A stretch of 64,000 nt of DNA from NCBI GenBank assembly GCA_964624415.1, contig CAZUWR010000001.1, positions 3,855 to 67,854 on the forward strand. The letters run 5' to 3'. The translations under genes were made by a program, and so were the position numbers. Positions 13,557 through 34,637 of this stretch are shown piece after piece. The stretch's first letter is position 1, and every line of letters begins with the position of its first letter. Source of the stretch: an uncultured Bdellovibrionales bacterium (lineage in GTDB: Bacteria; Patescibacteriota; Minisyncoccia; Moranbacterales; UBA1568). Under the pieces are notes generated by a model. The model was not told the DNA's origin, searched no databases, and saw only the letters and a list, made by a program, of their open reading frames with translations.

Positions 13557-13757
13557 ATGCCGGTACAAAAGCAACACCACACCAAAATGCGTCAAAAGCG
13601 CGGACGAGTCGGCCTGAAGGTTGTGCTCAAAAATACGCAGGAATGCCCGAAATGTAAAGCTCCTGTGCTTTCTCACAAGATGTGCCCGAAATGCGGTACC
13701 TATAAGGGAAAAGAGTTTGTCGATACCCTCAAGAAAGTCGCTCCAAAAAAGAAATAA
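13557..13757 (+). CDS. rpmF: 50S ribosomal protein L32
   Basis: 66 aa. MPVQKQHHTKMRQKR N-terminus and a CPKC...CPKC zinc ribbon. Confidence 0.85.
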   Translation: MPVQKQHHTKMRQKRGRVGLKVVLKNTQECPKCKAPVLSHKMCPKCGTYKGKEFVDTLKKVAPKKK

Positions 13758-13774
13758 CAGTTTTTTAAAATACT

Positions 13775-14305
13775 ATGGCAAATCGTCATCTTCAGAGGTC
13801 GCTGGCTATGCAGTCGCTTTTTGAGTGGGATTTTCAAGGTCAAGACAAGAATCGGACGGAGGAAATCGTGGATCGAAACGTTTTGGAGTTCGCTCTCGGA
13901 CTCGAGGATGCTTCATTTACCAAAAAGCTGGTGCAGGGCGTGATGGATCATCAGGAAGCTATCGATGCGATGATTGTACAGTGTGCCCCCGAGTGGCCTT
14001 TGGATCAGGTGACGGTTATCGATCGCAATATCTTGCGCATTGGCATTTACGAATTGGTGCATGGCAGCTATGACGATGCGCCTCCGAAGGTGGCTATCAA
14101 TGAGGCGATAGAGCTTGCTAAGACGTTCGGCGGGGATAACTCAGCCCGTTTTGTCAATGGCGTGCTCGGGACAGTCTATCGCAATATCGGCGAGCCGCTC
14201 AAGGATGACTCGACGTTCAAGCGGAAAATAGCCAAGGGAAAGAAAATGAAGGAGGAGAAAAAGGAAGAGATTGAAGAAGTTGAAACGAAACCAGTTACCG
14301 AATAA
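13775..14305 (+). CDS. nusB: transcription antitermination factor NusB
   Basis: RNILRIGIYEL and AINEAIELAKTFGGDNSARFVNGVLG motifs, plus a Lys/Glu-rich C-terminal tail. Confidence 0.85.
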   Translation: MANRHLQRSLAMQSLFEWDFQGQDKNRTEEIVDRNVLEFALGLEDASFTKKLVQGVMDHQEAIDAMIVQCAPEWPLDQVTVIDRNILRIGIYELVHGSYDDAPPKVAINEAIELAKTFGGDNSARFVNGVLGTVYRNIGEPLKDDSTFKRKIAKGKKMKEEKKEEIEEVETKPVTE

Positions 14306-14309
14306 CAGT

Positions 14310-15002
14310 ATGGATATGTTTAATGCGGACAATGTAGCAAAAAAATTGGGCATCCTTATTCATAATAAGGATCTTTTTCAGATGGCGGTCACGCATCGTT
14401 CGTATCTGAATGAGCATCGTGATCACCCTCTTAATCACAATGAACGGCTTGAATTCTTGGGTGATGCGGTTTTGGAATTGATCGTAACGGAGTATCTGTA
14501 TCACAACTATCCGAATCCGGAAGGGGAATTGACCAGTTGGCGGGCGGCGCTGGTGAACGGCGAAATGCTGGCCGTGGTGGCGCGCAGTATCGGCGTGGAG
14601 GAGTTTTTGATGATGAGCAAGGGCGAGGCCAAAGATACGGGACGAGCGAGGCAATACCTTTTGGCCAATGCGATGGAGGCGATTATCGGGGCCATCTATT
14701 TGGATCAGGGGTATGACGCTGCCAAAGACTTTATCACCAAGACGGTCTTAATTCACCTTGATGAAGTATTGAAGAGCAAGTCCTATGCCGATCCCAAGAG
14801 CCGTTTCCAAGAAGAGGCTCAGGAGCGTATGGGCATCACGCCCAATTATCACGTGTTGCGCGAGAAGGGTCCCGATCACGACAAGCATTTCGTTTCCGGG
14901 GCTTTCCTTGGGGAAGAATTGATTGCGGAAGGCGAGGGTCAATCCAAGCAAGAGGCGCAACGAGAGGCTGCCAAGAACGCCCTGGAGAAGAAGGGGTGGT
15001 AG
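14310..15002 (+). CDS. rnc: ribonuclease III
   Basis: RNase III signature NERLEFLGDAVLE and a C-terminal dsRBD (GPDHDKHF...GEGQSKQEAQREAA). ATG at 14310 avoids overlap with nusB. Confidence 0.9.
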   Translation: MDMFNADNVAKKLGILIHNKDLFQMAVTHRSYLNEHRDHPLNHNERLEFLGDAVLELIVTEYLYHNYPNPEGELTSWRAALVNGEMLAVVARSIGVEEFLMMSKGEAKDTGRARQYLLANAMEAIIGAIYLDQGYDAAKDFITKTVLIHLDEVLKSKSYADPKSRFQEEAQERMGITPNYHVLREKGPDHDKHFVSGAFLGEELIAEGEGQSKQEAQREAAKNALEKKGW

Positions 15003-15052
15003 GGGTTTGGTGAAGTAGTATTTTTAACAACCAAAGTGAGAGAGGTGGGAAA

Positions 15053-15292
15053 ATGAAACAAGATGTGATGGCGTTTTTGTATTATGCGATTGGCAGGATA
15101 TTCTTTCAGAAGAAGGTGTATCCACCGCAAATGGGCACTATCGACTATTATATAGCCAATTTTCGAGAGGCTTATATCAACTGGCTCCGAAGCGAACTCG
15201 AGCGAGAAGACCCTGTTTTTAGGGAGCAGCAAGAAATGAGGGTCTTTGCGAATGCAGTAAAATCCGCGGAGAATCCAAGTAGCGGTAAATAG
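15053..15292 (+). CDS. hypothetical protein
   Basis: 79-aa ORF with GGTGGG upstream of the ATG and a clean terminator downstream. No family recognised. Confidence 0.4.
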   Translation: MKQDVMAFLYYAIGRIFFQKKVYPPQMGTIDYYIANFREAYINWLRSELEREDPVFREQQEMRVFANAVKSAENPSSGK

Positions 15293-15350
15293 CAGTCCAG
15301 TGGATGAATATTACCCTAACTGGAATTGAAAGTAACCTTTACGATTGTAG

Positions 15351-15382
15351 AGGCTGGTATGCAATATGACCAGCCTTTTTTT
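15351..15382 (+). terminator. intrinsic terminator
   Basis: AGGCTGGT-loop-ACCAGCCT followed by T7. Confidence 0.75.
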
Positions 15383-15446
15383 CTTTGCTTTTCTTCTCAG
15401 TCATAATAAGGTACACTGAAATAAAGTCATTTGTGGCCATTTTTCT

Positions 15447-17738
15447 ATGTATCTCAAAAAACTTGAAATTTCCGGGTTCAAATCATTCGCCAACAAAACT
15501 GTGTTGGATTTTTCGTGTGACGGCAAGAGCGGCATCACGGCGGTGGTGGGGCCCAATGGGTCGGGAAAGTCCAATATCGCAGACGCTATCCGTTGGGCGC
15601 TCGGCGAGCAATCGCTCAAGAATTTGCGCGGGAAAAAATCCGAGGACGTCATTTTTGCCGGCTCGGGTTTGAAGGCGCGTTTGGGCAGCGCCTCGGTGAC
15701 GCTTCATTTCGACAATACCGACAAACGCATCCCGCTTGAGTTCGCGGATGTCGCTATCACCCGGAAACTCTTCCGGAGCGGAGAGAGTGAATACCTCATC
15801 AATGGCAGTCGTGTACGCCTTTTGGATATCGTGGATGTTTTGGCCAAGTCCGGTATCGGCAAAGACAGCTACTGCGTCATCACACAGGGTATGTCGGACG
15901 CTATCCTCAATGCCTCGCCTCTGGAACGGCGTGGGATATTTGAGGATGCGGCGGGCGTGAAGCATTATCAGATTCAAAAAGAACGATCGCTTCGCAAAAT
16001 GGAGAGCACGAAGGACAATCTGATACGGGTGGACAGCCTGCTTTTGGAAATCGAACCGCATTTGAAGAATCTCAAGCGTCAAGCGGAAAAAGCATCGCAG
16101 GGCAAGGATGTGGCAGCGTTGCTCCGTGCCAAGCAGCTGCAACTCTTCGGTTTTTTGTGGCATCGTTTCGATAGCGAGCGCTCCGGATTGGCGAGTGAGC
16201 GCGATGCATTGACGGCTAAGCTTGCTTTAATCGAAGCTCAGGTTCAGGCGCTTGATGTATCGCTTGCCAATGAATCGATACAGGCGGAAGACCAGGGCGC
16301 TATCAATGCCCTCGAGCGGCGTATCCGGGATACGCGTATCCATCTCAATGATGCAGAGCGCAATATTGCTATTGTGGACGGACGCATACAAATTGAGCAG
16401 GAACGCCGCGCGCCCAAAGAAGTGACGCAGAGCACCCCTGTTGATTTGGCCTATGTGCGGACGCGTTTGGCGGAGTTTCGCAAGGATCAGGAAACATTGA
16501 TTACTCGGCTGGGCAATGTCGAAGACCTTTCGGAGCTTCAGGATTTGAAAGAATTGGCACGAGTCATTCAGACGCGGATGTTTGAGTTGCATGAGGACGC
16601 AGGCAAAGGCGTCATCGTGACCAAGCAGACGATTACGCTGCCGGAAGAAGAGCTGCGAGCGAGCGATGTCCGGCTGGCCGAGCTTCAGTCTAAGAAAGCT
16701 ACCTTGAAACAGGAAAGCGAAGTATTCAGGAAAGAAATAGGTGAGAGTGAGACAGCTATCGCCGATGAACGAGAAAAGAGCCGGGCGAGTCGTGAGAAGT
16801 TTTTTGCTTTGGAAAAGCAGGCTCGCGAGAAGCATCACGAGCTCACTCTTCTGAAGGATGCGCTCAATGAAGCCAAGGTGCGATTGGCGCGCGTGGAAGT
16901 GCGCGAGGAAGATCTGATGGCGCAGATTAAAGAAGAGCTCGCATTGGAACCGTCGCAATTGAAGCATGATGGCGCAGCGGTCGATAAGGAAAGTATGGAG
17001 CGCGATATCGCACGTCTGAAGGTACAGCTCGAGCATATCGGCACTATCGATCCTCTGATCGTAGACGAGTATCAGGAAACACAGCAACGTTTCGAATTTT
17101 TGACCCAGGAATCGGCTGATCTGAAAAAGGCGATGGAGGCTTTACGAGAAGTGGTGCGCGAAATGGACGAGCGTATCCGCAAGGAATTCGATGTGGCTTT
17201 CAAACAGATTAGTACGGCTTTCGAGCACTATTTCTCTCTTATCTTCGGTGGAGGAAAGGCGCAGCTCGCGAGAGTACGCATCACCTCCAGGCTAAAGGAT
17301 CAGGAAGCGGATATTTCCGACGATGCCGTAGCCGATGAAACTGCCGAAACACAAGGGGATGAAAGCGCAATGCAAACGGGTATCGAAATTTTTGCGTGTC
17401 CTCCGGGGAAAAAGATTGCCAACCTCGCGATGCTTTCGGGCGGGGAGCGCTCGCTTACGTCGCTCGCCTTGCTGTTTGCCATTATCTCTCACAATCCGCC
17501 GCCATTTGCCGTGCTCGACGAGGTGGAGGCTGCTTTGGATGAGGCGAATTCACGAAAACTCAGCCGTGTTTTGCAGGAGCTTTCGCATCACACGCAATTC
17601 GTCGCCATCACGCACAATCGCGAGACCATGCGCCAGGCAACGCTCTTGTACGGTGTGACGATGGGTGAAGACGGTATTTCCAAGCTACTCTCCGTCCGTC
17701 TCGATCAGGTCGCTGATGATGGGAAAGTATTAGGGTAA
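15447..17738 (+). CDS. smc: SMC-family chromosome partition ATPase, short form without recognisable hinge
   Basis: N-terminal MYLKKLEISGFKSF and Walker A GPNGSGKSN. C-terminal signature LSGGERSLTSLALLFAI and Walker B FAVLDEVEAALD. Only 763 aa. Confidence 0.85.
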   Translation: MYLKKLEISGFKSFANKTVLDFSCDGKSGITAVVGPNGSGKSNIADAIRWALGEQSLKNLRGKKSEDVIFAGSGLKARLGSASVTLHFDNTDKRIPLEFADVAITRKLFRSGESEYLINGSRVRLLDIVDVLAKSGIGKDSYCVITQGMSDAILNASPLERRGIFEDAAGVKHYQIQKERSLRKMESTKDNLIRVDSLLLEIEPHLKNLKRQAEKASQGKDVAALLRAKQLQLFGFLWHRFDSERSGLASERDALTAKLALIEAQVQALDVSLANESIQAEDQGAINALERRIRDTRIHLNDAERNIAIVDGRIQIEQERRAPKEVTQSTPVDLAYVRTRLAEFRKDQETLITRLGNVEDLSELQDLKELARVIQTRMFELHEDAGKGVIVTKQTITLPEEELRASDVRLAELQSKKATLKQESEVFRKEIGESETAIADEREKSRASREKFFALEKQAREKHHELTLLKDALNEAKVRLARVEVREEDLMAQIKEELALEPSQLKHDGAAVDKESMERDIARLKVQLEHIGTIDPLIVDEYQETQQRFEFLTQESADLKKAMEALREVVREMDERIRKEFDVAFKQISTAFEHYFSLIFGGGKAQLARVRITSRLKDQEADISDDAVADETAETQGDESAMQTGIEIFACPPGKKIANLAMLSGGERSLTSLALLFAIISHNPPPFAVLDEVEAALDEANSRKLSRVLQELSHHTQFVAITHNRETMRQATLLYGVTMGEDGISKLLSVRLDQVADDGKVLG

Positions 17739-17744: not shown

Positions 17745-17780
17745 CCCCCCTCAGTCAGTGACTGAGGGGGGGGTTTTGTT
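17745..17780. terminator. bidirectional terminator after smc
   Basis: AAAACCCCCCTCAGTC-AGTG-ACTGAGGGGGGGTTTT. Confidence 0.8.
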
Positions 17781-17794: not shown

Positions 17795-18712
17795 TTAGAT
17801 TTTATCTTGCGGCCAATGGATGAACCAGGCGGGGACTTTTTCGATGAACGGATTGTGTACACTGATAGTAAGCTCACCGTCGTGAAAAGTCTTTTTCATC
17901 ATGAGTTCTTTTTGCCAAAACACAGAGCTTTCATCTATCATTTTAAAGGTATTTTCAATTCCTCTTTCAAAGGTATTTTCTTCAGTGGTATGTATAGACT
18001 CAGTATCTTCAGTGATAGCATATCTCAATAAAACATCTATGTAATTACCTGGAAATGACATATCTGATGAAAAATCGCTGTTTTCATGTTGCGGTGTGAT
18101 ATTTTCTACAGCGACACAATGCCATATCAGCATCAATTCCCACAGAGCCTTCGCCACCTTGGCCGTCCGATCAATTTTCGCTTCGACTTCAGCGATAACG
18201 CTCAAGAACCAATCGATATCTTCCTTTATCCCCGCAATCAAATCGTCCGTCTGCGCTTTGAAATGAGCGTACGAAGAGTAACTAGTTGGACACAGACTTG
18301 CTACAGAGAGCGCATTCTTCACATCCGTTTCCAAATTGCTGAGACCTTCTTTATCGAAACCGATACATTCAAGCGGATACTTCTCGAAAGATTCCCGCTT
18401 GGCATACGCATTTTTCAGTTCTTCCTCCCGGTATGTTTTTACGCTTTGAAATTCGCGAAGCGTTTTTAGTATTTTGGCATCGGCTAAAATATACCAACAC
18501 ACAATAAAAAAGAGCAGACACATTACCAAAATGGGAATCAGTGCCGATTTTATGGAATCTGCAAGCGCAATTTTACCTGACATGATAATCATTGGTACTA
18601 AAAAGAGTAGTACCGCGAGTAGATCTAAGCGAGGGTGTTTGTTCTTGAATGTCCATAAGGTTATTCTGACCTTCCAGATCAAAGCCGACAGTTTTTTAAG
18701 CAGAGTATTCAT
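17795..18712 (-). CDS. hypothetical membrane protein
   Basis: ATG at 18712 is preceded by GGAGG. Two N-terminal TM segments are followed by a soluble domain of about 230 aa. No family recognised. Confidence 0.5.
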   Translation of the reverse strand: MNTLLKKLSALIWKVRITLWTFKNKHPRLDLLAVLLFLVPMIIMSGKIALADSIKSALIPILVMCLLFFIVCWYILADAKILKTLREFQSVKTYREEELKNAYAKRESFEKYPLECIGFDKEGLSNLETDVKNALSVASLCPTSYSSYAHFKAQTDDLIAGIKEDIDWFLSVIAEVEAKIDRTAKVAKALWELMLIWHCVAVENITPQHENSDFSSDMSFPGNYIDVLLRYAITEDTESIHTTEENTFERGIENTFKMIDESSVFWQKELMMKKTFHDGELTISVHNPFIEKVPAWFIHWPQDKI

Positions 18713-18903
18713 GATGCCTCCAATGAGCATATTTGCGTAGGAACTAGTTTGTTGCCATATTTCGCAACGATTCATACTACCATATCAAGCGGAAAAGTCA
18801 AGGACAGAGCCTAGAGAGAACGATTTTTGACATATACACAGCACTCCATTTCTTCCATTCTTTTTTTATGGTAGACTGAAAAGAGTTACAATAAAGCTTT
18901 CTT

Positions 18904-19557
18904 ATGCATCGATTGGCCACCCTCAAAACCGCCTACTTCTTCTTAATGTATGCACTGGTACTGATTATTGTCCTGACACCCTTCCTAATACGAGGCGGCG
19001 TCTCTATTTTTTCCGAAGAGTTTGTGGAAGGAGGGCTTATTCTGTGTCTTTTAGCGGTCGGAGTGGGCATTAATTTTTTTTATGAGAGGGAATTGGACAA
19101 GCAAGAGCAATCCCTTCAGGATGCCTGGAAGCATATCGGCGCAGTCAATCTTTTAGTGGAACGGTTTCGGCTCGCTTTGACCGATGACACGGAGTATCCG
19201 AAAAACAAGAAAGAACTCCAGCTCTTTACGGCAATGATGCTCGGGAAAATACGCGGTGTCGTGCCTTGCGATGCCTTACTGCTTCGTGTGGTGGAAACGC
19301 AGACGCTCAAGACGATGTTTGAGTACAGTGAAGGTGAGGAGGTTGCTGTCCCGAAAATAGGGAATAAGGAATTGGTGAAGGAAATCAACCCTTTAGCAGA
19401 AGATATCGTTTCATCACAGTCCGATGAGGTCAAGATCAAGACCTTTGTCGTGTTCTCATCGACCGATACCACTCTGACCGAAGACCGGAGGATGTTGATA
19501 CAAAAAATCGTCAATGATTTTACTACCGTATACGTTATTTCCACGTATATACTTTAA
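18904..19557 (+). CDS. hypothetical membrane protein
   Basis: 217 aa with two N-terminal TM segments and a soluble C-terminal domain. It is divergent from the previous gene. Confidence 0.5.
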   Translation: MHRLATLKTAYFFLMYALVLIIVLTPFLIRGGVSIFSEEFVEGGLILCLLAVGVGINFFYERELDKQEQSLQDAWKHIGAVNLLVERFRLALTDDTEYPKNKKELQLFTAMMLGKIRGVVPCDALLLRVVETQTLKTMFEYSEGEEVAVPKIGNKELVKEINPLAEDIVSSQSDEVKIKTFVVFSSTDTTLTEDRRMLIQKIVNDFTTVYVISTYIL

Positions 19558-19578
19558 TACCTATCTCTCGATATTCGT

Positions 19579-20292
19579 ATGAACGATGTTTTGAAGAACA
19601 GAAGGAAAGATATCATCGTTTCCGTGGATGATTTCGGTATACGCCAGGTAGCGGAGGCTATCTTGCCGCTTGCCCAGAAAGGGAAGTTGGATCGAGTCTC
19701 CGTATTGGTCAATTATGTCGCCTCCAAAGAGCAAGCAGAGGCGCTTTTGGCGACAGGTGTCAAGATCGATCTGCATATGGAATTGATTAAACTGGTGAAA
19801 AGCGGTGAAAAAATGGAAGAGGGTGCTATATTTCGTGGGTTGAATTTTGTCATCCGGTATATGCTTGGATTCATCAAAGAGATTGATGTTGAGCGGTCAT
19901 GGACGCAGCAGATAGAGCGTTTTCATGAGCTCTTCGGACGCTATCCCGACGGTCTCAATTCTCACGAGCACCTTCACTATTTTCCAAAATTTTTCCGCAT
20001 CGCGGTGGCATTAGGTGCCCGGTATGAGATTCCTTTTGTGCGCTTTGCCCGGAAAAGCGTCGTAAGGCGACCTTTTGTCGTGGTTTCCCGGGTCATTGAT
20101 TTCTTTTGGAAGGCTGATAATAAACATTACAGCGAGCAGCGTCGTCCGAGAGATGCAGCGGATTTCTTTGTCAGCTATGACTGGTTGGATGATTTTGATG
20201 ATTTTTTGCTTCATTTGCCGCACGGGACCACGGAGATAGTTTTCCATCCCGAGCGCCCTGCCGAAGCAGCTGTCATAGAGAAGTATTTTTAG
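19579..20292 (+). CDS. YdjC/ChbG-like carbohydrate deacetylase
   Basis: N-terminal IIVSVDDFGI and later LNSHEHLHYFP resemble YdjC-family metal-binding motifs. Confidence 0.55.
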   Translation: MNDVLKNRRKDIIVSVDDFGIRQVAEAILPLAQKGKLDRVSVLVNYVASKEQAEALLATGVKIDLHMELIKLVKSGEKMEEGAIFRGLNFVIRYMLGFIKEIDVERSWTQQIERFHELFGRYPDGLNSHEHLHYFPKFFRIAVALGARYEIPFVRFARKSVVRRPFVVVSRVIDFFWKADNKHYSEQRRPRDAADFFVSYDWLDDFDDFLLHLPHGTTEIVFHPERPAEAAVIEKYF

Positions 20293-20315
20293 CAGTTGAT
20301 GTGTAAATAAGGGGT

Positions 20316-22184
20316 ATGTTGCAGTTATTGAAGAGAATCAAAAGTGAATGGATACTTTTTTGCCTTGTCATTGCTTTGGGTATTTTCGTACGATCCTATC
20401 ATTTTTCGGATTGGCTTCACTTCGAGATAGATCAGTCGTATGATACGCGATTAGTCTCTCCCGGTGTCGAAAACGGCATCAGTAGCCTTCCTTTGCTTGG
20501 TCCGACGGCTGGTGGAGGCAGGACTTTGCGTCTCGGACCCGCTTTCTATTATCTTGAGTATCTTAGCGCGAAAGTATTCGGCAACACGCCTTCCGGACAT
20601 GCCGGTATAGTCTTGGTGCTTTCGCTGCTTTCTTTGCCGCTTTTTTATCTCCTGTGCCGGCGGTATTTTTCGCGGTACCTCGCGCTCAGCTTGCTGGCGA
20701 TTTTTTCGGTTTCTTTGTATATGGTTCTGTATTCGCGATTTTCGTGGAGCCCCAATGTGCTGCCATTTTTCATGATGCTGATTATGTATGCGCTCTTGCG
20801 AAGCGTATCTTTCGATGAAAAAAGACGCGAAGTATGGTTTCTGACAGCGGTAGCAGCGGTTGCAATCATTACGCAGATACATTTCAATGCGTTTTTTATC
20901 GTACCGCCGGTTGTAGCGATTTTCCTTATGATTAAGCGACCGCGTTTCGGATGGCAGACATGGCTTTCGGCGGTCGCAATCGTCTTAGTGGTATATGCGC
21001 CGGTGATTATCAGCGATATCAAGATGAACGGACAAAACACGATGTATTTTGTTGAAAGACTTGAATTTGGAGGGCAACACAATACGAAAGCACTGGAAAA
21101 GTTGGTTCAGATAACGCAGTATCATGCTGCCGATTATTTTTTGATTGATACGGGTATCGATAAGATCAATGGAAAAAAACTGATAGGGTATGGATGGCAA
21201 CCGCGAGGAATACTTCCTTGGAGACTTATCGCGCTTGCGCTTTTATTCGGTGAGCTGTATGTGCTTACCAGCAATATCCGCAAAGAAAAGGATACACACA
21301 GAAAAGATTTTCTTATTTTCTGCGGACTGCTTTTCTCTCTTTCGTTTCTCTATTTCTTCTCGCTTGCCAAGAGCGGATTCAATATTTATCCGCGATTCTT
21401 TCTTTTGGTCAGTCCATTGGCGATTATACTGCTCGGACTAATGCTTGAGACGCTGCACCCGGAAAGAAATCGGAAGCGGTTGGCGGTGTTTGCGGCAGTT
21501 ATAGCGCTTCTTGTCACATCCAATCTTTATAAGATTAATACATATTTTTCCCAACTGTCGCATACGCAAGAGCAGCCAAGTAAAGTGATGACTGAGGATG
21601 TGCTCCCTAATACGGCGCGTGCAACGCTGTCGGAGCAGCTGGCGGTCGTTGATTTCATCCAGTCCAAGCAAGAGGAGAATGGTTTCCCGGTCTATATCAA
21701 TGCGAAACATGAGTATGAGCCGGTATTTTGGTATCATCTGGAAAGGCGCGGCATCGCGTTTCATGAATCCATCAAAAACGATGTCGCTTATCGGGAGGCG
21801 AACTATTTTCTTATCACCTTTGCCGACAAAGGATTGAAGAGCTATGCATCGCGTTTCACGATCGCGGACAAAAAAACATGTGGTGTATTCAGCGTGTATA
21901 TGCTACGTCCGAATACGGAGAGTATCACCGCAGAGCGACAAACATCGGTAGGGGAAACGCCTATACAAACCCTGCAGATAAACGAGCTTTTCACCTGGAA
22001 TAAGTTGAGGTCATCATGGAATGCTGCGACGGATGCGGCTATCGAGGCGAAAATCCAGCAAGCGGAAACAACAGATATTCAAAATGATGTGACTCAAGGA
22101 CTTTCCAGTAGTGATGAAAACACGAACGGAGATGGCTCTGGTTCTCCTGATACTCCCATCGGTGCAGTCGATGATCTGGAGTAG
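20316..22184 (+). CDS. GT39/ArnT-like polytopic glycosyltransferase
   Basis: 622 aa with about 10 or more TM segments, then a soluble C-terminal domain and an acidic low-complexity tail. The topology is typical of lipid-carrier-dependent glycosyltransferases. The family call is motif-weak. Confidence 0.5.
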   Translation: MLQLLKRIKSEWILFCLVIALGIFVRSYHFSDWLHFEIDQSYDTRLVSPGVENGISSLPLLGPTAGGGRTLRLGPAFYYLEYLSAKVFGNTPSGHAGIVLVLSLLSLPLFYLLCRRYFSRYLALSLLAIFSVSLYMVLYSRFSWSPNVLPFFMMLIMYALLRSVSFDEKRREVWFLTAVAAVAIITQIHFNAFFIVPPVVAIFLMIKRPRFGWQTWLSAVAIVLVVYAPVIISDIKMNGQNTMYFVERLEFGGQHNTKALEKLVQITQYHAADYFLIDTGIDKINGKKLIGYGWQPRGILPWRLIALALLFGELYVLTSNIRKEKDTHRKDFLIFCGLLFSLSFLYFFSLAKSGFNIYPRFFLLVSPLAIILLGLMLETLHPERNRKRLAVFAAVIALLVTSNLYKINTYFSQLSHTQEQPSKVMTEDVLPNTARATLSEQLAVVDFIQSKQEENGFPVYINAKHEYEPVFWYHLERRGIAFHESIKNDVAYREANYFLITFADKGLKSYASRFTIADKKTCGVFSVYMLRPNTESITAERQTSVGETPIQTLQINELFTWNKLRSSWNAATDAAIEAKIQQAETTDIQNDVTQGLSSSDENTNGDGSGSPDTPIGAVDDLE

Positions 22185-22223
22185 GAAAGGTATAATTTCG
22201 ATAGCATATAAAGAATTACGCGT

Positions 22224-23324
22224 ATGAAATCGTTGGTCATCAAAGTTGTGGTATGGATAGCCATTGTAAATATTTTTGCGTTCGTGGCGCTCAACCGATT
22301 CAATCTCAATGCCGATACGGCCTATCGTTGGATTTCTCCCTCGCAGTTTCCTGCAGTGCAGAGTTTCGATTTCGTGAATATGCACAATCGGTGGGATTCG
22401 TACTGGTATCTGGATATCATCCAAAACGGGTACTATTTGAAGCAGGATAATACGCTTTCCAATGTCGTCTTTTTTCCCTTGTATCCGATGTTGATGAAAC
22501 TGGTCGGGACGATTCTTTTTGGGCACTTTATCTTGGCCGGGTGGCTGATCAGTAGCGTTTCGCTGGTACTGGCCTGCACGTACCTGTATCGGATCATACG
22601 CGAGTTTCATCCTGATATCGATCCGGAGCTTCCAGTACTTCTGATGCTCGTCTTTCCAACCGCTTTTTTCCTTAACGTCGTGTATACGGAAGCCTTGTTC
22701 CTGCTACTGACAACCGGGTGTTTTTACTACACATTGCGCCGGCAATTCTGGCATGCGGGAGCCTTTGCTCTTTTCGGTGCATTGACACACAGCAACGGTG
22801 TTTTTCTGGCACTGCCTATTTTCTGGGAGACGGTCCAGCTACATGGATGGAAATCGCTTTTCACGCAGAGAATTTTTCCGATGGCGCTCGCTCCGATAGG
22901 GATGATCTCATTTCTCGCTTTCGATTATTTCAAATTTCACGACCCGCTTTTGTTCTTCAAGATCGAGAGCGCCTGGGGACGATCGTTTTCTATTAATTAT
23001 GATCATTTCTCGCTTTTTTCGCATCCGTCGATTATCAATATGGGTATCGATATCGTATTTACGATACTTATTATCACAGCGGTAGTGCTGGTATACCAGC
23101 GTCTTTCGAGGATGTATGCCGTATTTATGTCATTGACCGTTTTCGCCGCGCTCTCATCGGGGACGCTGATGAGTATCGGCCGCTATAGTCTCGCTTTGTT
23201 TCCACTTTTCATCCTTCTTGCCACCATCAAGAACAAAACCGTTCTGCAGGCGTGGATTTTCGGTTCAGCTCTTTTTCTTGCGATGGACATCACGCTCTTT
23301 GTGACGAATTATTGGGCAGGGTAG
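22224..23324 (+). CDS. PIG-V-like / GT-C mannosyltransferase-family membrane protein
   Basis: 366 aa, polytopic. The RWDSYWYLDIIQNGY motif is characteristic of the PIG-V-type mannosyltransferase family, as I remember it. Confidence 0.5.
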   Translation: MKSLVIKVVVWIAIVNIFAFVALNRFNLNADTAYRWISPSQFPAVQSFDFVNMHNRWDSYWYLDIIQNGYYLKQDNTLSNVVFFPLYPMLMKLVGTILFGHFILAGWLISSVSLVLACTYLYRIIREFHPDIDPELPVLLMLVFPTAFFLNVVYTEALFLLLTTGCFYYTLRRQFWHAGAFALFGALTHSNGVFLALPIFWETVQLHGWKSLFTQRIFPMALAPIGMISFLAFDYFKFHDPLLFFKIESAWGRSFSINYDHFSLFSHPSIINMGIDIVFTILIITAVVLVYQRLSRMYAVFMSLTVFAALSSGTLMSIGRYSLALFPLFILLATIKNKTVLQAWIFGSALFLAMDITLFVTNYWAG

Positions 23325-23668
23325 AAAATGATACCGGCTGTTCCTATGAATGTGAAAATTTTCGTAATACGGCGGATATTCATAGTTTCTTCATATTGGA
23401 TAAGTAAACTATATTCAGTAGACTTTTTACGAGTATGTGAATTATGAAAATTGAAACCGCTTATTCGAAATCAAATCGAACAGTCGAGTATAAGGATGCA
23501 ACAAAAAATGTTAAACAAGGTGCCTGAGATAACATTGTATTTTTTGGGTTATCAAGGTGTTGTGTGCGACGGTGGGTGAGACTATTTCCGATTTCCCTAA
23601 TGTCAAAAAGACGGGAGCATATTAGTATGGAGGTATTGTATCGGGTAATCAGTAAGCCGTTTTGTTTT

Positions 23669-24115
23669 ATGAAAAAATATGCCTACATCATGACACTTGC
23701 AGGGATGGCGTTTATCAATGCGGCTTACCTGAGTTACAAGGCCTATGTGTTTCAATATGTGAGCAAGGTTGATTTCTCGACCTTCTGCAGTTTCTCGGGC
23801 ACTAATTCGTGCTCCAATGTCTTAGCGAGTCCGTATTCTTTGGTATTCGGTATCCCATTCCCATGGATCGCTCTGATCGTCTATCCTGTCTTATTTTTCT
23901 TGGCTTGGCAAGGCTTCCGGAAATCCTCGTATGCTCAGGCGGAGATCTTGGCTGTGTTAGCGGGTCTTGGGATGTGCTTCAACGGGTTTATCATTTATAG
24001 AGAGATCACTATCATTCACGCGTACTGCCTCTTATGCCTTCTTTGTTCTATAATCATTATAACTATCTTTACGCTCTCATTGCTTCTCTTACGCGAAGCG
24101 AAACGGCTGCTTTAA
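23669..24115 (+). CDS. vitamin K epoxide reductase (VKOR) family protein
   Basis: Four TM segments, a loop Cys pair (CSFSGTNSC) and a CLLC redox motif in the last TM. ATG at 23669 is preferred to the longer track ORF. Confidence 0.7.
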   Translation: MKKYAYIMTLAGMAFINAAYLSYKAYVFQYVSKVDFSTFCSFSGTNSCSNVLASPYSLVFGIPFPWIALIVYPVLFFLAWQGFRKSSYAQAEILAVLAGLGMCFNGFIIYREITIIHAYCLLCLLCSIIIITIFTLSLLLLREAKRLL

Positions 24116-24126
24116 AAAGATTGCAT

Positions 24127-24792
24127 ATGCGTATCCTTATTGTGGAAGATAATCAAAAATTGGCGACCTATCTGAAGAAAGCTTTGGAAAGCCAAAGCTA
24201 TGCTGTCGATGTGGTGCATGATGGAATAAAAGGAGAAATTCGCGCAAGGTGCGGCGAATACGATGCTGTCATTTTGGATGTGATGCTACCAGAAAAAGAT
24301 GGTATCGCTGTTTGTAAAGGTTTACGCGAAGGGAACATCAATATGCCGGTACTGATGCTCACTGCCAAAGGGGACATTGGCGATAGGGTTGAGGGATTGG
24401 ATAGTGGTGCCGATGATTATCTGGTAAAACCCTTTGAGTTGGAAGAATTGTTGGCACGTATCCGAGCACTGCTTCGCCGACCTCAGGAGAAATATCCAGA
24501 GATTTTGACAGTGCGGGATATTATAATCAATAACGCTACTCGTTCGGTTGAGAAAAACGGGAAAATGATTTTGCTGACACTCAAAGAATATGCGGTATTG
24601 GAATATCTTATACTTAATAAAGGCCGAGCGATGACGAGAGAGCAGATATTGGAACATTGTTGGGATTTCGCGTTCGATTCTTTCAGTAATATCGTGGATG
24701 TGTATATCAAACAGGTAAGAAAAAAACTCAATGACAAAGATGGAATATATATTAAGACCGTTCGAGGTATTGGTTACAAGTTTGAGGATTAG
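24127..24792 (+). CDS. OmpR-family response regulator
   Basis: MRILIVEDN receiver start, DVMLP phospho-acceptor region and a C-terminal winged helix (VRGIGYKF). Confidence 0.9.
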   Translation: MRILIVEDNQKLATYLKKALESQSYAVDVVHDGIKGEIRARCGEYDAVILDVMLPEKDGIAVCKGLREGNINMPVLMLTAKGDIGDRVEGLDSGADDYLVKPFELEELLARIRALLRRPQEKYPEILTVRDIIINNATRSVEKNGKMILLTLKEYAVLEYLILNKGRAMTREQILEHCWDFAFDSFSNIVDVYIKQVRKKLNDKDGIYIKTVRGIGYKFED

Positions 24793-25780
24793 CGCTATCA
24801 ATATAGCAAGAATCAAACTGACGATTTTTTATGAAGCGGTCGTTTTTTTGATACTAGCGCTTTTCAGTGTTGGCGTATACGGGCTCTTCGATAAATCGTT
24901 GGGTGAGGATTTGGGATATCCTCAGTTAGGTATCGGTATTCAGTTGCTGGGACATACCAAGACAGAGCTCGCCAAGGATATCATTGTGGAGGAAAAACAG
25001 AGATTGTTAGTTATTCTCCTGCTATTGGATGGCGTTATTCTTGTAGTTGCCGGAGGAATGAGCTTTGTTTTGGCAGGATATACATTGAAACCGATTCAGG
25101 AAAGTTATGATCGCCAGAAGAAGTTTTTGGCCGACGCTGCTCATGAGTTTCGGACGCCGCTTTCGGTAATGAAGACAGGTATGCAGGTCGCACTCAAAGA
25201 AAGGTTGAATCATGATGGGTATGCACGGATCATGAAAGAGTCCGTCGAGGAAATCGATTTTCTGAACGCGATGGTCGATGACCTTCTCTTTTTGGCGAAG
25301 AGCGACTATTCGAAAAAAACACCATTTACCGAGGTTGATTTTGAGGCGATGATTGAAAAACAGGTCACAGTTATGCAATCGTATGCGAAAGAGAAGCAGG
25401 TTACGCTAACGATTGAAGGGCTCGAGGGTATGAGGGTGTTTGGCAATGAGGCGCATCTGAAACGGCTTCTGACAAATCTGATACACAATGCCATCGATTA
25501 TAATATTCCCGGGGGGAAGGTAGGCGTTTCCTGCTGGAAGGATAGGCATTGGGCACACTTAACAGTGTTTGATACCGGCGTCGGTATTTCGCAGGGCAAT
25601 CTGAAACATATATTCGATCGATTTTATAAGGCGGATTCTTCCCGCGCGAAAAAATCAGGCGGGGCGGGTCTGGGGCTGTCTATCGTACAAGGAATCGTCA
25701 GATCCCATCATGGGCAGATTCATCTTGAGAGTATTGTTGGACAAGGAACAACCGTATTCATAATGTTGCCATTGGCGTAA
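24782..25780 (+). CDS. sensor histidine kinase
   Basis: Two TM segments, H-box HEFRTPLSV, N-box NLIHNAIDYN, G1 DTGVGIS and G2 GGAGLGLSIV. The start is uncertain: TTG at 24782 or ATG at 24731, both overlapping the regulator. Confidence 0.85.
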   Translation: MRISAINIARIKLTIFYEAVVFLILALFSVGVYGLFDKSLGEDLGYPQLGIGIQLLGHTKTELAKDIIVEEKQRLLVILLLLDGVILVVAGGMSFVLAGYTLKPIQESYDRQKKFLADAAHEFRTPLSVMKTGMQVALKERLNHDGYARIMKESVEEIDFLNAMVDDLLFLAKSDYSKKTPFTEVDFEAMIEKQVTVMQSYAKEKQVTLTIEGLEGMRVFGNEAHLKRLLTNLIHNAIDYNIPGGKVGVSCWKDRHWAHLTVFDTGVGISQGNLKHIFDRFYKADSSRAKKSGGAGLGLSIVQGIVRSHHGQIHLESIVGQGTTVFIMLPLA

Positions 25781-25906
25781 TGATCCCAGAGAGAATATCT
25801 TCATGTGATTTTCATCTTTGCGTTCTATACTGTCTTATGTAATCCTTTATACGGAGTTGTTGATGTGTAACATAATACGGTTATGCGCGGCGGACTCATA
25901 AGAAGT

Positions 25907-26239
25907 ATGAATAAGAAAAAAGCGATGATGGTAGGCGGACTGGCAATGGCCATTATGTTGTCGAGCAATGTTCTCGGTGCCCATGCTTCGACGACGAAAA
26001 GCACGAGCGACAAAACCGAAAAAGGAACAGTCGTATCGGTCTCTTCGGATTCATTTGATCTGAAGGCGAACAATAAGACTTATACGGTAAAAACGAGTGA
26101 TACGACGGTATTTAAGGATAAGAAGGGCGCTACCACTATGAAGTTGAGCGACATCAAAAAAGGCGACACCGTAAAGGCGAAGGGTGTTTTGACCAAGATG
26201 AAGCTGTCTGCCAAAAGCGTAACCGAATTTTCTCGGTAA
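25907..26239 (+). CDS. secreted small protein (DUF5666-like pattern)
   Basis: Signal peptide MNKKKAMMVGGLAMAIMLSSNVLGAHA. It shares the pattern GxVxS...SFxxK...T.V...SD(I/L)..G..V..G with the C-terminus of the protein at 39260-39748. Confidence 0.55.
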   Translation: MNKKKAMMVGGLAMAIMLSSNVLGAHASTTKSTSDKTEKGTVVSVSSDSFDLKANNKTYTVKTSDTTVFKDKKGATTMKLSDIKKGDTVKAKGVLTKMKLSAKSVTEFSR

Positions 26240-26342
26240 GTAGCTCCCGGAAGAGTTTATACAGGGAGTGATGTTTATGCATTACACTCCCTGTGTTTTC
26301 TATTCAGAAAGATGTCTTTTTAGAACCAAAAAACTGCGCATA

Positions 26343-26371
26343 TTGACAGTTTTGAGGCTATAGAGTAGACT
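26343..26371 (+). promoter_or_regulatory. sigma-70-type promoter of rpsP
   Basis: TTGACA, 17-nt spacer, TAGACT. Confidence 0.5.
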
Positions 26372-26408
26372 AGGGGAAGACTTTAAACGGTGTAATCGAT
26401 AGTATATT

Positions 26409-26729
26409 ATGTTGACGATTCGTTTCAATCGAACAGGGAAAAAGAACCATGCCCAATTCCGCGTGGTAGTACAGGAACACACGGTGGCTCCCGGAGGACG
26501 CCATGTCGAGGTGCTCGGAAGCTATGATCCCCATCAGAAAAAGGCTGTACTGAAGGCAGAACGTATCACTTATTGGTTGGGACAGGGTGCTCAGATGTCC
26601 GATTCCGCGTTCAACTTATGCGTCAAAGAAGGTGTGGTCAAGGCCGACAAGAAACGCGCTGTGAAAATAGCTCGTCCGGTCAAGGCGGTTGAAGAAGCCC
26701 CAGCTCCTGTGGCTGAAGTAAAAGCATAG
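26409..26729 (+). CDS. rpsP: 30S ribosomal protein S16
   Basis: MLTIRFNRTGKKNHAQFRVVV N-terminus, 106 aa. Confidence 0.9.
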   Translation: MLTIRFNRTGKKNHAQFRVVVQEHTVAPGGRHVEVLGSYDPHQKKAVLKAERITYWLGQGAQMSDSAFNLCVKEGVVKADKKRAVKIARPVKAVEEAPAPVAEVKA

Positions 26730-26916
26730 AGAGGCTTCTGTCATTGTGGACAGAGTGCTGTATCGAGGTTTTCCCGGTACACTACCTTGTTCAGAATGAT
26801 AGAGTACAATCGAATATTTTCCGTAGATCCAAGGCATTTGTAAGTCCTTGAGAGGAAGTGCCGATAAACGAATCTCTAGAGGGATAGTATATCGGGTCGA
26901 GCTCTTGCTCTTATGT

Positions 26917-33423: not shown

Positions 33424-33460
33424 GCGTCGGAAGGTATATGCCATTCGACGCGCTTTTTTA
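33424..33460 (+). terminator. intrinsic terminator
   Basis: GCGTCGGA-loop-TTCGACGC followed by GCTTTTTT. It overlaps the nrdG stop codon. Confidence 0.65.
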
Positions 33461-34168: not shown

Positions 34169-34172
34169 AGGA

Positions 34173-34630: not shown

Positions 34631-34637
34631 CGCCCGC

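What the first reader, a model, noticed from the sequence alone, without database searches (positions are those of the whole stretch)
15447..17738. SMC ortholog of only 763 aa with no recognisable hinge
The head domains are canonical SMC: FKSF, Walker A GPNGSGKSN, LSGGERSL and Walker B FAVLDEVEAALD. About 430 residues lie between the heads.

Those residues are continuous heptad-like, charged sequence. I see no hinge-type block in them: no Gly-rich dimerisation motif and no globular segment of about 150 aa. The midpoint is a short HEDAGKGVIVTKQTITLPEEE stretch.

Bacterial SMC proteins are normally about 1100-1200 aa, with a hinge that mediates dimerisation and DNA entry. A mini-SMC without a hinge would have to dimerise differently (RecN- or Rad50-like apex?), yet it has no CxxC zinc hook.
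Basis: partly seen in the sequence, partly recalled or inferred. Interest (0 to 1): 0.5.

Follow-up and report, generated by a model that had tools for sequence, protein, structure and literature searches.

The report
Hinge-less short-armed SMC of Moranbacteria
This gene is the bacterium's ordinary chromosome-organising SMC ATPase, but it and its relatives across a large group of tiny-genome bacteria have lost the central "hinge" domain thought to define SMC proteins, and the arm tip is instead a small, previously undescribed strand-plus-helical-hairpin module.

Summary
ORF 15447-17738 (+) encodes a 763-aa protein with canonical SMC heads. It scores above NCBI's trusted cutoff for bacterial SMC (660.8 vs 567.35 bits). 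It sits in the conserved rpmF-nusB-rnc-smc position and ends at a strong terminator hairpin. No hinge is detectable with Pfam at E<=10, a hinge HMM built from hinge-bearing candidate-phyla (CPR/Patescibacteria) SMCs, or profile-profile comparison.

It is not an artefact. The 119 closest homologues (60-82% identity) from separate assemblies are 745-799 aa and hinge-less; those that carry a name are mostly Moranbacteria. Of the 150 closest 50%-identity cluster representatives, 139 lack a hinge (about 750, 880 and 1045 aa). Seven proteins of about 1000 aa keep it.

Residues 322-399 are predicted (pLDDT 89) as strand, helical hairpin, strand. The true turn is at 357-360, and the module has no PDB counterpart.

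Hinge-less SMC orthologues also turned up in Saccharibacteria, Uhrbacteria, a SAR86 single-cell genome and a Pelagibacter MAG.

Most likely this is the sole chromosomal SMC, dimerising through its ATP-engaged heads. Dimerisation through the new apex is likely but unproven. ScpAB partners and a second SMC in the same genome could not be checked. One 2025 paper describes marine hinge-less SMCs; I found none for CPR.

The parts
15447..17738 (+). smc gene, 763 aa plus stop codon; hinge-less SMC orthologue
   Evidence: ORF listing. Pfam SMC_N 1.7e-67 with no SMC_hinge. TIGR02168 660.8 bits against a cutoff of 567.35.
15447..15956 (+). N-terminal half of the ATPase head (aa 1-170), including FKSF (11-14), Walker A (35-43, nt 15549-15575) and the Q-loop Q147
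   Evidence: Motif positions. Residues 1-216 align to residues 1-212 of B. subtilis Smc head chains (5xg3, 3zgx) at 1.4e-63 and 1.2e-63. Mean top-residue frequency is 0.90 within the clade.
15957..16409 (+). N-terminal arm helix (aa 171-321), with a break at 282-283
   Evidence: AlphaFold2 helices 172-281 and 284-320, block pLDDT mostly 84-93 in the head-proximal part, falling to 74-86 beyond residue 270. Collinear with TIGR02168 profile positions 1-358 and with residues 1-326 of hinge-bearing P0173.
16410..16643 (+). Apex module (aa 322-399): strand 324-331, helix 334-356, turn 357-360 (nt 16515-16526), helix 361-385, strand 389-396. It stands where hinge-bearing SMCs carry the hinge.
16590..16652 (+). 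It is the end of apex helix B, the conserved G386-x-G388, the return strand, and L398-P399.
16644..17246 (+). C-terminal arm helix (aa 400-600), with breaks at 499-513 and 533-537. Residues 465-559 (nt 16839-17123) match a B. subtilis Smc fusion fragment, PDB 5nmo, which I recall as the Smc joint structure.
   Evidence: AlphaFold2 helices 400-498, 514-532 and 538-600. PDB 5nmo_A match at 1e-5 over query 465-559.
17247..17735 (+). C-terminal half of the ATPase head (aa 601-763): signature LSGGERSL (663-670, nt 17433-17456), Walker B plus D-loop FAVLDEVEAALD (687-698, nt 17505-17540), H-loop H723
   Evidence: Residues 641-755 align to the B. subtilis Smc head at 2.8e-35.
17271..17366 (+). Acidic, variable loop inserted in the C-terminal head (aa 609-640). 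It is predicted to be disordered and has no counterpart in the aligned B. subtilis head.
   Evidence: pLDDT 33-34. It falls in the gap between HMMER domains 2 and 3 against 5xg3. Top-residue frequency is 0.38 with 14% gaps.
17745..17771 (.). Terminator-like hairpin readable on both strands (12-bp stem, 9 G-C pairs), lying between the convergent genes smc and ORF 17795-18775(-)
13557..15002 (+). Upstream conserved neighbours: rpmF (13557-13757), nusB (13775-14305) and rnc (14271-15002)
   Evidence: ORFs. The same rpmF-nusB-rnc-smc order with Pfam labels is found in relatives L001, L002 and L003.

Best explanation
This is the chromosomal SMC ATPase of a Moranbacteria (Patescibacteria/CPR) bacterium. 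It descends from a hinge-bearing, already short-armed CPR SMC and has lost the hinge together with the distal arm.

Retained parts:
- A complete ABC-type head with Walker A, Q-loop, signature motif, Walker B/D-loop and H-loop.
- The head-proximal coiled coil, including a stretch (465-559) that matches a B. subtilis Smc arm fragment, PDB 5nmo (the joint structure, as I recall it).
- About 150 residues of antiparallel arm, roughly 22 nm. With the tip this makes about 28 nm, against about 47-49 nm in B. subtilis Smc.

The arm ends in a two-stranded beta ladder capped by a 23+25-residue helical hairpin.

Proposed mechanism:
1. Two subunits engage through their heads and sandwich two ATP molecules. 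This is inferred from the intact signature motif and from general ABC/SMC knowledge.
2. DNA is clamped on the engaged heads (inferred).
3. The heads are presumably bridged by a kleisin (not shown).
4. The arm tips are most likely held together by the new apex module, for example two hairpins packing into a four-helix bundle with the strands extending into a sheet. The dimer would then remain a closed, rod-like ring without a hinge. This last step is inference only.

My confidence by part: about 0.9 that this is the orthologous, functional, naturally hinge-less SMC; about 0.45 that the apex module is the replacement dimerisation element.
For: Identity and orthology:
- TIGR02168 scores 660.8 bits against a cutoff of 567.35.
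- The best PDB matches are B. subtilis Smc heads at 1e-116, and a B. subtilis Smc fusion fragment (5nmo) matches at 1e-5.
- All ATPase motifs are intact.
- The rpmF-nusB-rnc-smc order is conserved at 82% and 61% identity.
- The window holds no second SMC, MukB or RecN.

Hinge absence:
-.

Purifying selection and reality of the gene:
- 119 homologues of the same length at 60-82% identity.
- Heads are 90% conserved per column within the clade.
- A terminator-like hairpin follows the stop codon.

Descent from a hinge-bearing form:
- Against hinge-bearing P0173 (1002 aa), query 1-323 aligns to 1-326 and query 334-754 aligns to 578-996. This is equivalent to deleting P0173 residues 327-577.

The apex is a real, selected structure:
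- Two independent models give the same topology, and the apex-only model has pLDDT 89.1.
- Within the clade the module is better conserved (0.69-0.72) than the arm segments on either side (0.60 and 0.52).
- Seven positions are invariant.
- Beyond the a/d seam there are extra conserved hydrophobic positions: Y336, I352, F370, V373 and an aromatic at 379. The strands are hydrophobic on both faces (V326 I327, V329 I330, I395 I396). This is more buried surface than a lone two-helix hairpin needs.

Precedent:
- The key resources table of Burmann et al. 2017 lists B. subtilis strains in which the Smc hinge is replaced by the Pyrococcus Rad50 zinc hook, and the paper reports that short arms can be functional (PMC5344682). 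That the zinc-hook chimeras retain function is my recollection, not something the retrieved passages state.
Against: - No dimer prediction or experiment supports apex-apex contact. The monomer model satisfies the strands within one chain.
- Across the wider hinge-less CPR family (35-55% identity) the apex is no better conserved than the rest of the arm. The strands and the turn are gapped in 23-38% of sequences. Any apex interface is therefore clade-specific or evolves quickly.
- ScpA and ScpB were not found in the 64-kb window and could not be sought in the rest of the genome.
- A second, hinge-bearing SMC elsewhere in the genome is not excluded.
- The full-length AlphaFold2 model is only moderate: pLDDT 71.8, pTM 0.43, and 53-65 in the apex.
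Confidence: 0.6

Rival explanations
1. It is the same orthologous hinge-less SMC, but the arm tips do not associate. The apex module only caps and stabilises a free coiled-coil end. The complex is held together solely at the heads, by the ATP sandwich and possibly a kleisin. It would then work as an open clamp or tweezer, more like RecF or hook-less Rad50 heads, and not as a closed ring.
For: - The apex is poorly conserved and often gapped across the broader hinge-less family.
- Apex regions in Saccharibacteria, Uhrbacteria, SAR86 and Pelagibacter proteins differ from one another.
- The module has no detectable similarity to any known dimerisation domain.
- Hinge-less forms exist with three different arm lengths. 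This suggests that arm-tip geometry is not tightly constrained.
Against: - Within the clade the apex is better conserved than the flanking arm. It carries invariant residues and surplus hydrophobic positions.
- From general knowledge: every SMC-family protein studied so far joins its arm tips in some way, through a hinge, a zinc hook, or the RecN coiled-coil tips.
- Long arms of about 28 nm would have no obvious purpose if they were free.
Confidence: 0.25
2. It is a specialised paralogue, for example a RecN-like or repair- or defence-related SMC-like ATPase. A canonical full-length SMC elsewhere in the genome would then do the chromosome-organising job.
For: - Only 64 kb of the genome is visible; the identical protein's contig is 272 kb.
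- Hinge-bearing SMCs of about 1000 aa do exist in other Patescibacteria. Both hinge-bearing and hinge-less proteins carry the name Buchananbacteria.
- The PADLOC model 'mad3' matches the head at 221 bits.
Against: - The protein scores above the SMC equivalog cutoff, far above RecN (26 against 408), Rad50 (36 against 700) and ASRP (45 against 300).
- It occupies the conserved rnc-smc position in three relatives' contigs.
- Its neighbours are housekeeping genes, not defence genes.
- The hinge-bearing and hinge-less Buchananbacteria proteins come from different assemblies.
- None of the named proteins among the 120 best hits to hinge-bearing P0173 is from Moranbacteria.
- The marine study likewise found no co-occurrence of hinge-less and regular SMC in single-cell genomes (PMC12153180).
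Confidence: 0.07
3. It is an assembly or deletion artefact, or a decaying pseudogene.
For: None beyond the unusual length.
Against: - 119 independent homologues have the same architecture.
- 68 separate 50%-identity clusters fall at 720-799 aa.
- The motifs are intact.
- The heads are strongly conserved.
- The reading frame is uninterrupted and a terminator-like hairpin follows the stop.
Confidence: 0.01

Closest known systems
Canonical bacterial Smc of Smc-ScpAB (B. subtilis Smc, TIGR02168 SMC_prok_B)
   Same: - Head sequence: the N-head aligns at 1e-63 and the C-head at about 1e-35.
- All ATPase motifs are present.
- A stretch of the C-terminal arm (465-559) matches the B. subtilis Smc fragment 5nmo.
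- The arm is an antiparallel coiled coil.
- The gene lies after rnc. The rnc-smc-ftsY order in B. subtilis is from my own knowledge.
   Different: - There is no hinge domain.
- The arm has about 150 paired residues plus a 78-residue tip, against about 344 in B. subtilis (PMC5344682).
- The C-terminal head carries an extra acidic loop at 609-640.
- ftsY is not downstream.
Engineered Mini-Smc and Smc with the hinge replaced by the Rad50 zinc hook (Burmann et al. 2017, PMC5344682)
   Same: - Shortened arms.
- In the chimeras, a non-hinge element at the arm tip.
- The paper shows that shortened Smc arms can work in some length regimes. The zinc-hook strains appear in its key resources table.
   Different: - Those proteins are laboratory constructs, and each keeps a proven dimerisation element (hinge or zinc hook).
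- This protein is natural and has neither.
- Its arm length falls between the natural arm-length modes of 163 and 238 residues reported for hinge-bearing Smc.
'Hinge-less' SMC cluster from ocean metagenomes (Environ Microbiome 2025, PMC12153180)
   Same: - SMC-type heads, a coiled coil folded back with no hinge, and no CxxC hook.
- No co-occurring regular SMC was detected.
   Different: - That cluster is marine and was assigned to Actinomycetes. This protein is from Moranbacteria/CPR.
- In a rough head-domain tree, the marine SAR86 and Pelagibacter hinge-less proteins I found fall outside the CPR group. Hinge loss is therefore probably recurrent.
- The apex module described here was not reported there.
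RecN
   Same: An SMC-family ATPase with short arms and no hinge. From my own knowledge, RecN dimerises through its coiled-coil tips.
   Different: TIGR00634 scores 26 bits against a cutoff of 408. The head is SMC-type, and the arms are about twice as long.
Rad50/SbcC
   Same: An ABC head, a long antiparallel coiled coil and a non-hinge apex.
   Different: - There is no CxxC zinc hook.
- Rad50 and SbcC models score 24-36 bits against cutoffs of 478-1420.
- There is no Mre11/SbcD neighbour.
SMCs with channel-less hinges (MukB, Wadjet II/III JetC, Acetobacter Smc; PMC12647877)
   Same: They depart from the canonical doughnut-shaped hinge.
   Different: They keep a hinge-derived dimerisation domain and tend to have longer arms. 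Here the hinge is gone and the arms are shorter.

Membership tests
Bacterial SMC (Smc of Smc-ScpAB; TIGR02168 / PF02463 + PF06470) | Bipartite ABC ATPase head: N-terminal Walker A; C-terminal signature motif, Walker B and H-loop | tested here: met
Bacterial SMC (Smc of Smc-ScpAB; TIGR02168 / PF02463 + PF06470) | Score above the curated equivalog cutoff of TIGR02168 | tested here: met
   660.8 bits against 567.35.
Bacterial SMC (Smc of Smc-ScpAB; TIGR02168 / PF02463 + PF06470) | Long intramolecular antiparallel coiled-coil arm with a head-proximal joint | tested here: met
   AlphaFold2 helices 172-320 and 400-600. A B. subtilis Smc fusion fragment (5nmo, recalled as the joint structure) matches at 1e-5. 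The arm is much shorter than the canonical one.
Bacterial SMC (Smc of Smc-ScpAB; TIGR02168 / PF02463 + PF06470) | Central hinge dimerisation domain (PF06470, Gly-rich motif) | tested here: not met
   No Pfam hit at E<=10. The lineage-specific hinge HMM scores <=5.5 bits here, against 235-273 bits on the seven hinge-bearing CPR proteins. hhalign probability is 0.1%. No Gly motif is present.
Bacterial SMC (Smc of Smc-ScpAB; TIGR02168 / PF02463 + PF06470) | Conserved chromosomal position next to rnc | tested here: met
Bacterial SMC (Smc of Smc-ScpAB; TIGR02168 / PF02463 + PF06470) | Kleisin ScpA and the kite protein ScpB encoded in the same genome | not testable with these tools
   None was found among the roughly 60 ORFs of the window. 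The rest of the genome cannot be reached.
RecN | TIGR00634 equivalog score; about 550 aa with short arms | tested here: not met
   26.3 bits against a cutoff of 407.85.
Rad50/SbcC | CxxC zinc hook at the coiled-coil apex | tested here: not met
   No CxxC; there are only three isolated cysteines.
Rad50/SbcC | Family HMM score and an adjacent Mre11/SbcD nuclease gene | tested here: not met
   24-36 bits against cutoffs of 478-1420. There is no nuclease neighbour.
Defence SMC-like ATPases (Lamassu LmuB, Wadjet JetC, MADS mad3) | Full-length match to the defence model, plus partner genes of the system next to it | tested here: not met
   The mad3 match (221 bits) is carried mainly by the head, with the best stretch at 2-209. 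LmuB scores 66 bits and JetC 46 bits. The neighbours are rnc, nusB and housekeeping or membrane genes, and the two adjacent ORFs have no PADLOC hit.
Marine 'hinge-less SMC' clade of PMC12153180 | SMC heads, a folded-back coiled coil without a hinge, and no CxxC | tested here: met
   compared with the description.
Marine 'hinge-less SMC' clade of PMC12153180 | Membership in that monophyletic, Actinomycetes-affiliated cluster | not tested
Named homologues of this protein are Moranbacteria/Patescibacteria.

The most novel reading that the evidence does not exclude
Hinge loss is not a curiosity of one gene. It may be a recurrent, stable state of the sole chromosomal SMC in several groups with small, streamlined genomes: much of the Patescibacteria, at least some SAR86 and Pelagibacter, and the marine clade of PMC12153180.

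If so, the hinge is dispensable for the core SMC function. These proteins would be natural minimal SMC motors. They would either be closed by new, lineage-specific arm-tip modules such as the strand/hairpin/strand apex found here, or work as open, non-ring dimers.
Probability: 0.5. Interest if true: 0.8.

Novelty: new variant of a known kind. Interest (0 to 1): 0.62.

Why it matters
The hinge is treated as a defining part of SMC proteins. It is the constitutive dimerisation interface, a proposed DNA entry gate and, most recently, a selective gate for bypassing obstacles (PMC12647877).

Natural hinge-less SMC orthologues, maintained across a large bacterial radiation, would show which hinge functions are dispensable. 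They would also provide small (about 750 aa), evolution-tested minimal SMCs for structural and single-molecule work.

They run against the reported trend that losing the hinge channel goes with longer arms. Here the arms are shorter.

There is a practical point too. NCBI names many of these proteins 'AAA family ATPase'. Surveys that rely on product names or on PF06470 will therefore score these lineages as lacking SMC.

Saccharibacteria and Pelagibacter have cultivated members (my own knowledge). That could make the question experimentally tractable if the cultivated strains share the trait, which I did not check.

Tried and rejected
- **Vestigial hinge.** The apex profile A4 against the CPR hinge profile A5 with hhalign gave probability 0.1%. 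The hinge HMM run with --max gave <=5.5 bits. Rejected.
- **The ~880-aa relatives carry a degenerate hinge and this protein only a remnant.** Rejected. Six such proteins have no Pfam hinge and none matches the hinge HMM. The alignment shows that their extra ~120 residues are coiled-coil-like modules on both sides of the shared apical hairpin.
- **ScpA/ScpB.**
  - Pfam on about 60 window ORFs found none.
  - A regex and a phmmer search, using a B. subtilis ScpA sequence recalled from memory and not verified, also found nothing.
  - The genome outside the window could not be searched.
- **The window protein's own contig.** It is not on record for the look-up of encoding contigs.
- **The genome-contig scan.** It gives anecdotes about distribution, not a survey.
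- **Hinge-profile protein search.** It returned only short fragments and said nothing about Moranbacteria.
- **Co-occurrence of hinge-bearing and hinge-less SMC in Buchananbacteria.** The four proteins checked come from different assemblies, so the test is uninformative.
- **Head-domain NJ tree.** It is star-like and has no support values. It interleaves the length classes and nests hinge-bearing sequences among hinge-less ones. I use it only to say that the SAR86 and Pelagibacter proteins fall outside the CPR group.
- **Defence-system reading.** Rejected on genomic context, despite the mad3 head match.
- **Literature searches for CPR, Patescibacteria, Saccharibacteria or SAR11 hinge-less SMC.** Nothing was found.
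Full report
**1. The observation**

The window holds an uninterrupted ORF at 15447..17738 (+) that starts with ATG and encodes 763 aa.
- FKSF at 11-14
- Walker A GPNGSGKSN at 35-43
- the Q-loop at Q147
- signature LSGGERSL at 663-670
- Walker B/D-loop FAVLDEVEAALD at 687-698
- the H-loop at H723
- the 'midpoint' peptide at 382-402

There is no CxxC. The only cysteines are C24, C143 and C651. There is no Gly-rich hinge motif.

Pfam reports SMC_N (1.7e-67, spanning 2-745) and no SMC_hinge even at E<=10. NCBIfam places the protein in the bacterial SMC equivalog TIGR02168 at 660.8 bits, above the curated cutoff of 567.35. RecN (26 against 408), Rad50/SbcC (24-36 against 478-1420) and the archaeal ASRP family (45 against 300) are far below theirs. 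The best solved-structure matches are B. subtilis Smc head constructs (1e-116). A B. subtilis Smc fusion fragment, 5nmo, matches residues 465-559; I recall that entry as the Smc joint structure. No hinge structure is matched.

**2. The short length is real**

The identical protein is on record from a 272-kb contig. The next 119 best homologues, at 60-82% identity and from separate assemblies with contigs up to 939 kb, are all 745-799 aa. None carries the hinge Pfam domain. Where a source names them, most are Candidatus Moranbacteria/Moraniibacteriota and one is labelled Patescibacteria group. That phylum sits in the Parcubacteria group of the Patescibacteria.

The gene follows rpmF-nusB-rnc. 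The same order is found in relatives at 82% and 61% identity (L001, L002, L003). rnc-smc is also the B. subtilis arrangement (my own knowledge). A hairpin with a 12-bp stem and 9 G-C pairs lies 7 nt after the stop codon.

The other ORFs tested in the window, about 60, are mostly housekeeping genes: pgk, eno, rmlC/D, glyA, dnaX, dnaE, gatB, thyA, folA, dcd, miaA, L1, L10, nrdD/G. About a dozen have no Pfam match. None is a second SMC, MukB, RecN, ScpA or ScpB.

**3. How far hinge loss extends**

I ran an exhaustive HMMER search of 1.84 billion cluster representatives. The 150 closest fall into length classes:
- 68 at 720-799 aa, collinear with the query in a single stretch
- 69 at 800-960 aa
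- 9 at 960 aa or more
- 4 shorter fragments

I expected the ~880-aa class to carry the hinge. It does not. Six of them have no Pfam hinge, and neither does a 1043-aa protein, whereas the 1002-aa P0173 has one at 414-531.

An iterated search with the P0173 hinge, and an HMM built from seven CPR hinges, separate the set cleanly. Seven proteins of 995-1035 aa score 235-273 bits. Two distant controls (L037, L017) score 25-35 bits. Every other protein scores <=5.5 bits.

The alignment shows that the longer hinge-less classes have extra coiled-coil-like modules on both sides of a shared apical hairpin. These modules often begin with a 'G-x-x-D-L-x-aromatic-L' break motif. Here the corresponding sequence is S-T-P-V-D-L-A-Y-V at 329-337.

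Named hinge-bearing CPR SMCs (~1000-1050 aa) come from Buchananbacteria, Falkowbacteria and Magasanikbacteria. Named hinge-less ~890-aa proteins come from Buchananbacteria and Parcubacteria. The four Buchananbacteria proteins I traced come from different assemblies, so co-occurrence is neither shown nor excluded.

- Uhrbacteria
- Saccharibacteria
- Patescibacteria UBA2100
- two MAGs labelled Gammaproteobacteria
- a SAR86 single-cell genome (727 aa, 33% GC locus)
- a Candidatus Pelagibacter MAG (814 aa, 28% GC locus)

Of the nine of these scanned with Pfam, all lack the hinge domain, while an Anaerolineae control has it. Four of them were also run against NCBIfam: three pass the SMC equivalog cutoff (SAR86 826 bits, Pelagibacter 681, one of the Gammaproteobacteria-labelled MAGs 616) and one Saccharibacteria protein falls just below it at 527.

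In a rough head-domain NJ tree the SAR86 and Pelagibacter proteins fall outside the CPR group. Loss has therefore probably happened more than once. The tree is too poorly resolved to count events.

**4. Anatomy of this protein**

AlphaFold2 with a 52-sequence family alignment gives the following (pLDDT 71.8):
- helical arms at 172-281, 284-320, 400-498, 514-532 and 538-600
- a disordered acidic loop at 609-640 inside the C-terminal head

The centre is not a plain hairpin. A second model of residues 291-430 alone (20-sequence alignment) is confident: pLDDT 89.1 with no residue below 70. It has the same topology:
- helix 292-321
- strand 324-331
- helix 334-356
- turn 357-360
- helix 361-385
- strand 389-396
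- helix 400-429

So the arm is about 150 paired residues, roughly 22 nm at 0.148 nm per residue (textbook value). It is interrupted by a two-stranded ladder and capped by a short helical hairpin.

Within the Moranbacteria clade the module is better conserved (0.69-0.72 per column) than the arm on either side (0.60 and 0.52). Seven positions are invariant: P331, V332, D333, V337, Q348, L351 and A371. G386, G388, L398 and P399 are nearly invariant.

Both helices show a regular a/d seam. Extra conserved hydrophobic positions lie outside the seam (Y336, I352, F370, V373 and an aromatic at 379), and the strands are hydrophobic on both faces. That is more buried surface than an isolated two-helix hairpin needs.

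The module has no detectable relation to the hinge (hhalign probability 0.1%). It has no specific counterpart among solved structures.

Across the wider hinge-less family (35-55% identity) the apex is not better conserved than the rest of the arm, and the strands are often gapped. Apex regions in other lineages differ.

**5. Origin**

Against hinge-bearing P0173, residues 1-323 align to 1-326 and residues 334-754 align to 578-996. The protein therefore looks like a short-armed CPR SMC that lost its distal N-terminal arm, its hinge and the first part of the return helix (about 250 residues).

If the 334-400 alignment is taken at face value, the apical hairpin could be the orphaned part of the former C-terminal arm folded back on itself. 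Coiled-coil alignments are unreliable, so I rate this as a weak hypothesis.

**6. How it most likely works**

*Shown:*
- a complete SMC-type ATPase head
- a conserved head-proximal coiled coil, including a match to the B. subtilis Smc fragment 5nmo
- no hinge and no zinc hook
- a clade-conserved apex module
- purifying selection across many genomes

*Inferred from established ABC/SMC knowledge:*
- Two heads sandwich two ATP molecules through Walker A and the signature motif.
- DNA is clamped on the engaged heads.
- A kleisin probably bridges them.

*Inferred from this analysis only:*
- The apex module replaces the hinge as the arm-tip dimerisation element.

The main rival is an open dimer held only at the heads. 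A paralogue reading and an artefact reading are unlikely, for the reasons given above.

**7. Comparison with what is known**

- The protein works like Smc of Smc-ScpAB and passes its equivalog model. It fails one defining feature, the hinge. I therefore file it as a variant, not a standard member.
- Burmann et al. 2017 showed that B. subtilis Smc tolerates shortened arms in some length regimes. Their key resources table lists strains in which the hinge is replaced by the Rad50 zinc hook. They found natural arm-length modes at 163, 238, 341, 423 and 515 residues, but only among sequences that have a hinge (PMC5344682).
- A 2025 ocean-metagenome study described an abundant 'hinge-less SMC' cluster assigned to Actinomycetes and regarded it as new biology (PMC12153180).
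- A 2025 study proposes that the hinge channel is a gate for obstacle bypass, and notes that channel-less hinges go with longer arms (PMC12647877). The CPR proteins go the other way.
- I found no paper on hinge-less SMC in CPR, Saccharibacteria or SAR11 in the searchable library. That library does not cover subscription-only literature.

**8. Verdict**

The finding is real.

New here:
- the CPR-wide extent of hinge loss
- the three hinge-less length classes
- the conserved smc-locus context
- the predicted strand/hairpin/strand apex

Still open: ScpAB partnership, whether this is the only SMC in the genome, and the oligomeric state.

Noticed in passing
L013:552-2735 (SAR86 single-cell genome AG-349-N21); L015:4001-6445 (Candidatus Pelagibacter MAG): Hinge-less SMC orthologues of 727 and 814 aa occur in two abundant marine lineages with small genomes. 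They score 826 and 681 bits on TIGR02168 and have no PF06470 domain. The locus GC contents of 33% and 28% fit the taxon labels. They may be related to the abundant marine hinge-less cluster of PMC12153180.
   Followed up: partly
L006, L008, L012 (uncultured Candidatus Saccharibacteria); L005 (Uhrbacteria); L011 (Patescibacteria UBA2100): Hinge-less SMCs of about 717-761 aa also occur in other CPR phyla. Saccharibacteria include cultivable strains (my own knowledge), which may offer an experimental system. In L006 the ORF stops at 615 aa, although the tblastn match continues to query residue 754. This could be a frameshift, a sequencing error or a recoded stop.
   Followed up: partly
P0134, P0148, P0153, P0195 (about 870-900 aa); P0214, P0229 (1043-1050 aa): Longer hinge-less SMC classes look as if they were built by adding coiled-coil modules on both sides of the shared apical hairpin. 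Each module often starts with a 'G-x-x-D-L-x-aromatic-L' break motif, and P0214 and P0229 carry it twice. This suggests that arm length changes by gain or loss of whole modules.
   Followed up: partly
window 17271-17366 (aa 609-640): An acidic, low-confidence, highly variable loop (RVRITSRLKDQEADISDDAVADETAETQGDES...) is inserted in the C-terminal head. It lies between the FGGG strand and the PPGKK strand and has no counterpart in the aligned B. subtilis Smc head.
   Followed up: no
window 17795-26900: About 9 kb lies between smc and rplJ that is absent in relatives L001 and L002, where smc is followed within about 2.1 kb (L001) or about 0.75 kb (L002) by rpsP and rplJ. The segment holds two membrane or unknown ORFs (17795-18775 on the minus strand, 18904-19557), a YdjC-like gene, a PMT_2 glycosyltransferase, a 366-aa ORF with no Pfam match, a VKOR gene and a response-regulator/histidine-kinase pair.
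   Followed up: no
window 15003-15446: The rnc-smc intergenic gap is unusually long at 445 nt, against about 320 and 180 nt in L001 and L002. It has no Rfam match and no plus-strand promoter-like site in the simple scan.
   Followed up: partly
Database names of P0002, P0021, P0038, P0059, P0322, P0328 and others: NCBI names many hinge-less and some hinge-bearing CPR SMCs 'AAA family ATPase', even though the hinge-less ones tested here, and the hinge-bearing P0173, pass the TIGR02168 cutoff. Surveys based on product names would score these lineages as lacking SMC.
   Followed up: no
PADLOC model PDLC04135 (mad3) against window 15447-17738: The MADS defence model mad3 matches the housekeeping SMC at 221 bits, with the best stretch over the head (2-209). 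It could produce false defence-system calls on ordinary smc genes.
   Followed up: no
L004, L010 (MAGs labelled uncultured Gammaproteobacteria): Their hinge-less SMCs are 39% identical to the Moranbacteria protein. In the head tree they fall within the CPR group, in the same sub-cluster as the Uhrbacteria protein L005. The contigs may be mis-binned CPR DNA, or the gene may have been transferred.
   Followed up: no
window 33458-36960 (-): An anaerobic ribonucleotide reductase NrdD (757 aa, with an ATP-cone) lies next to a radical-SAM protein that is probably its activase. The same pair is present in relative L001.
   Followed up: no
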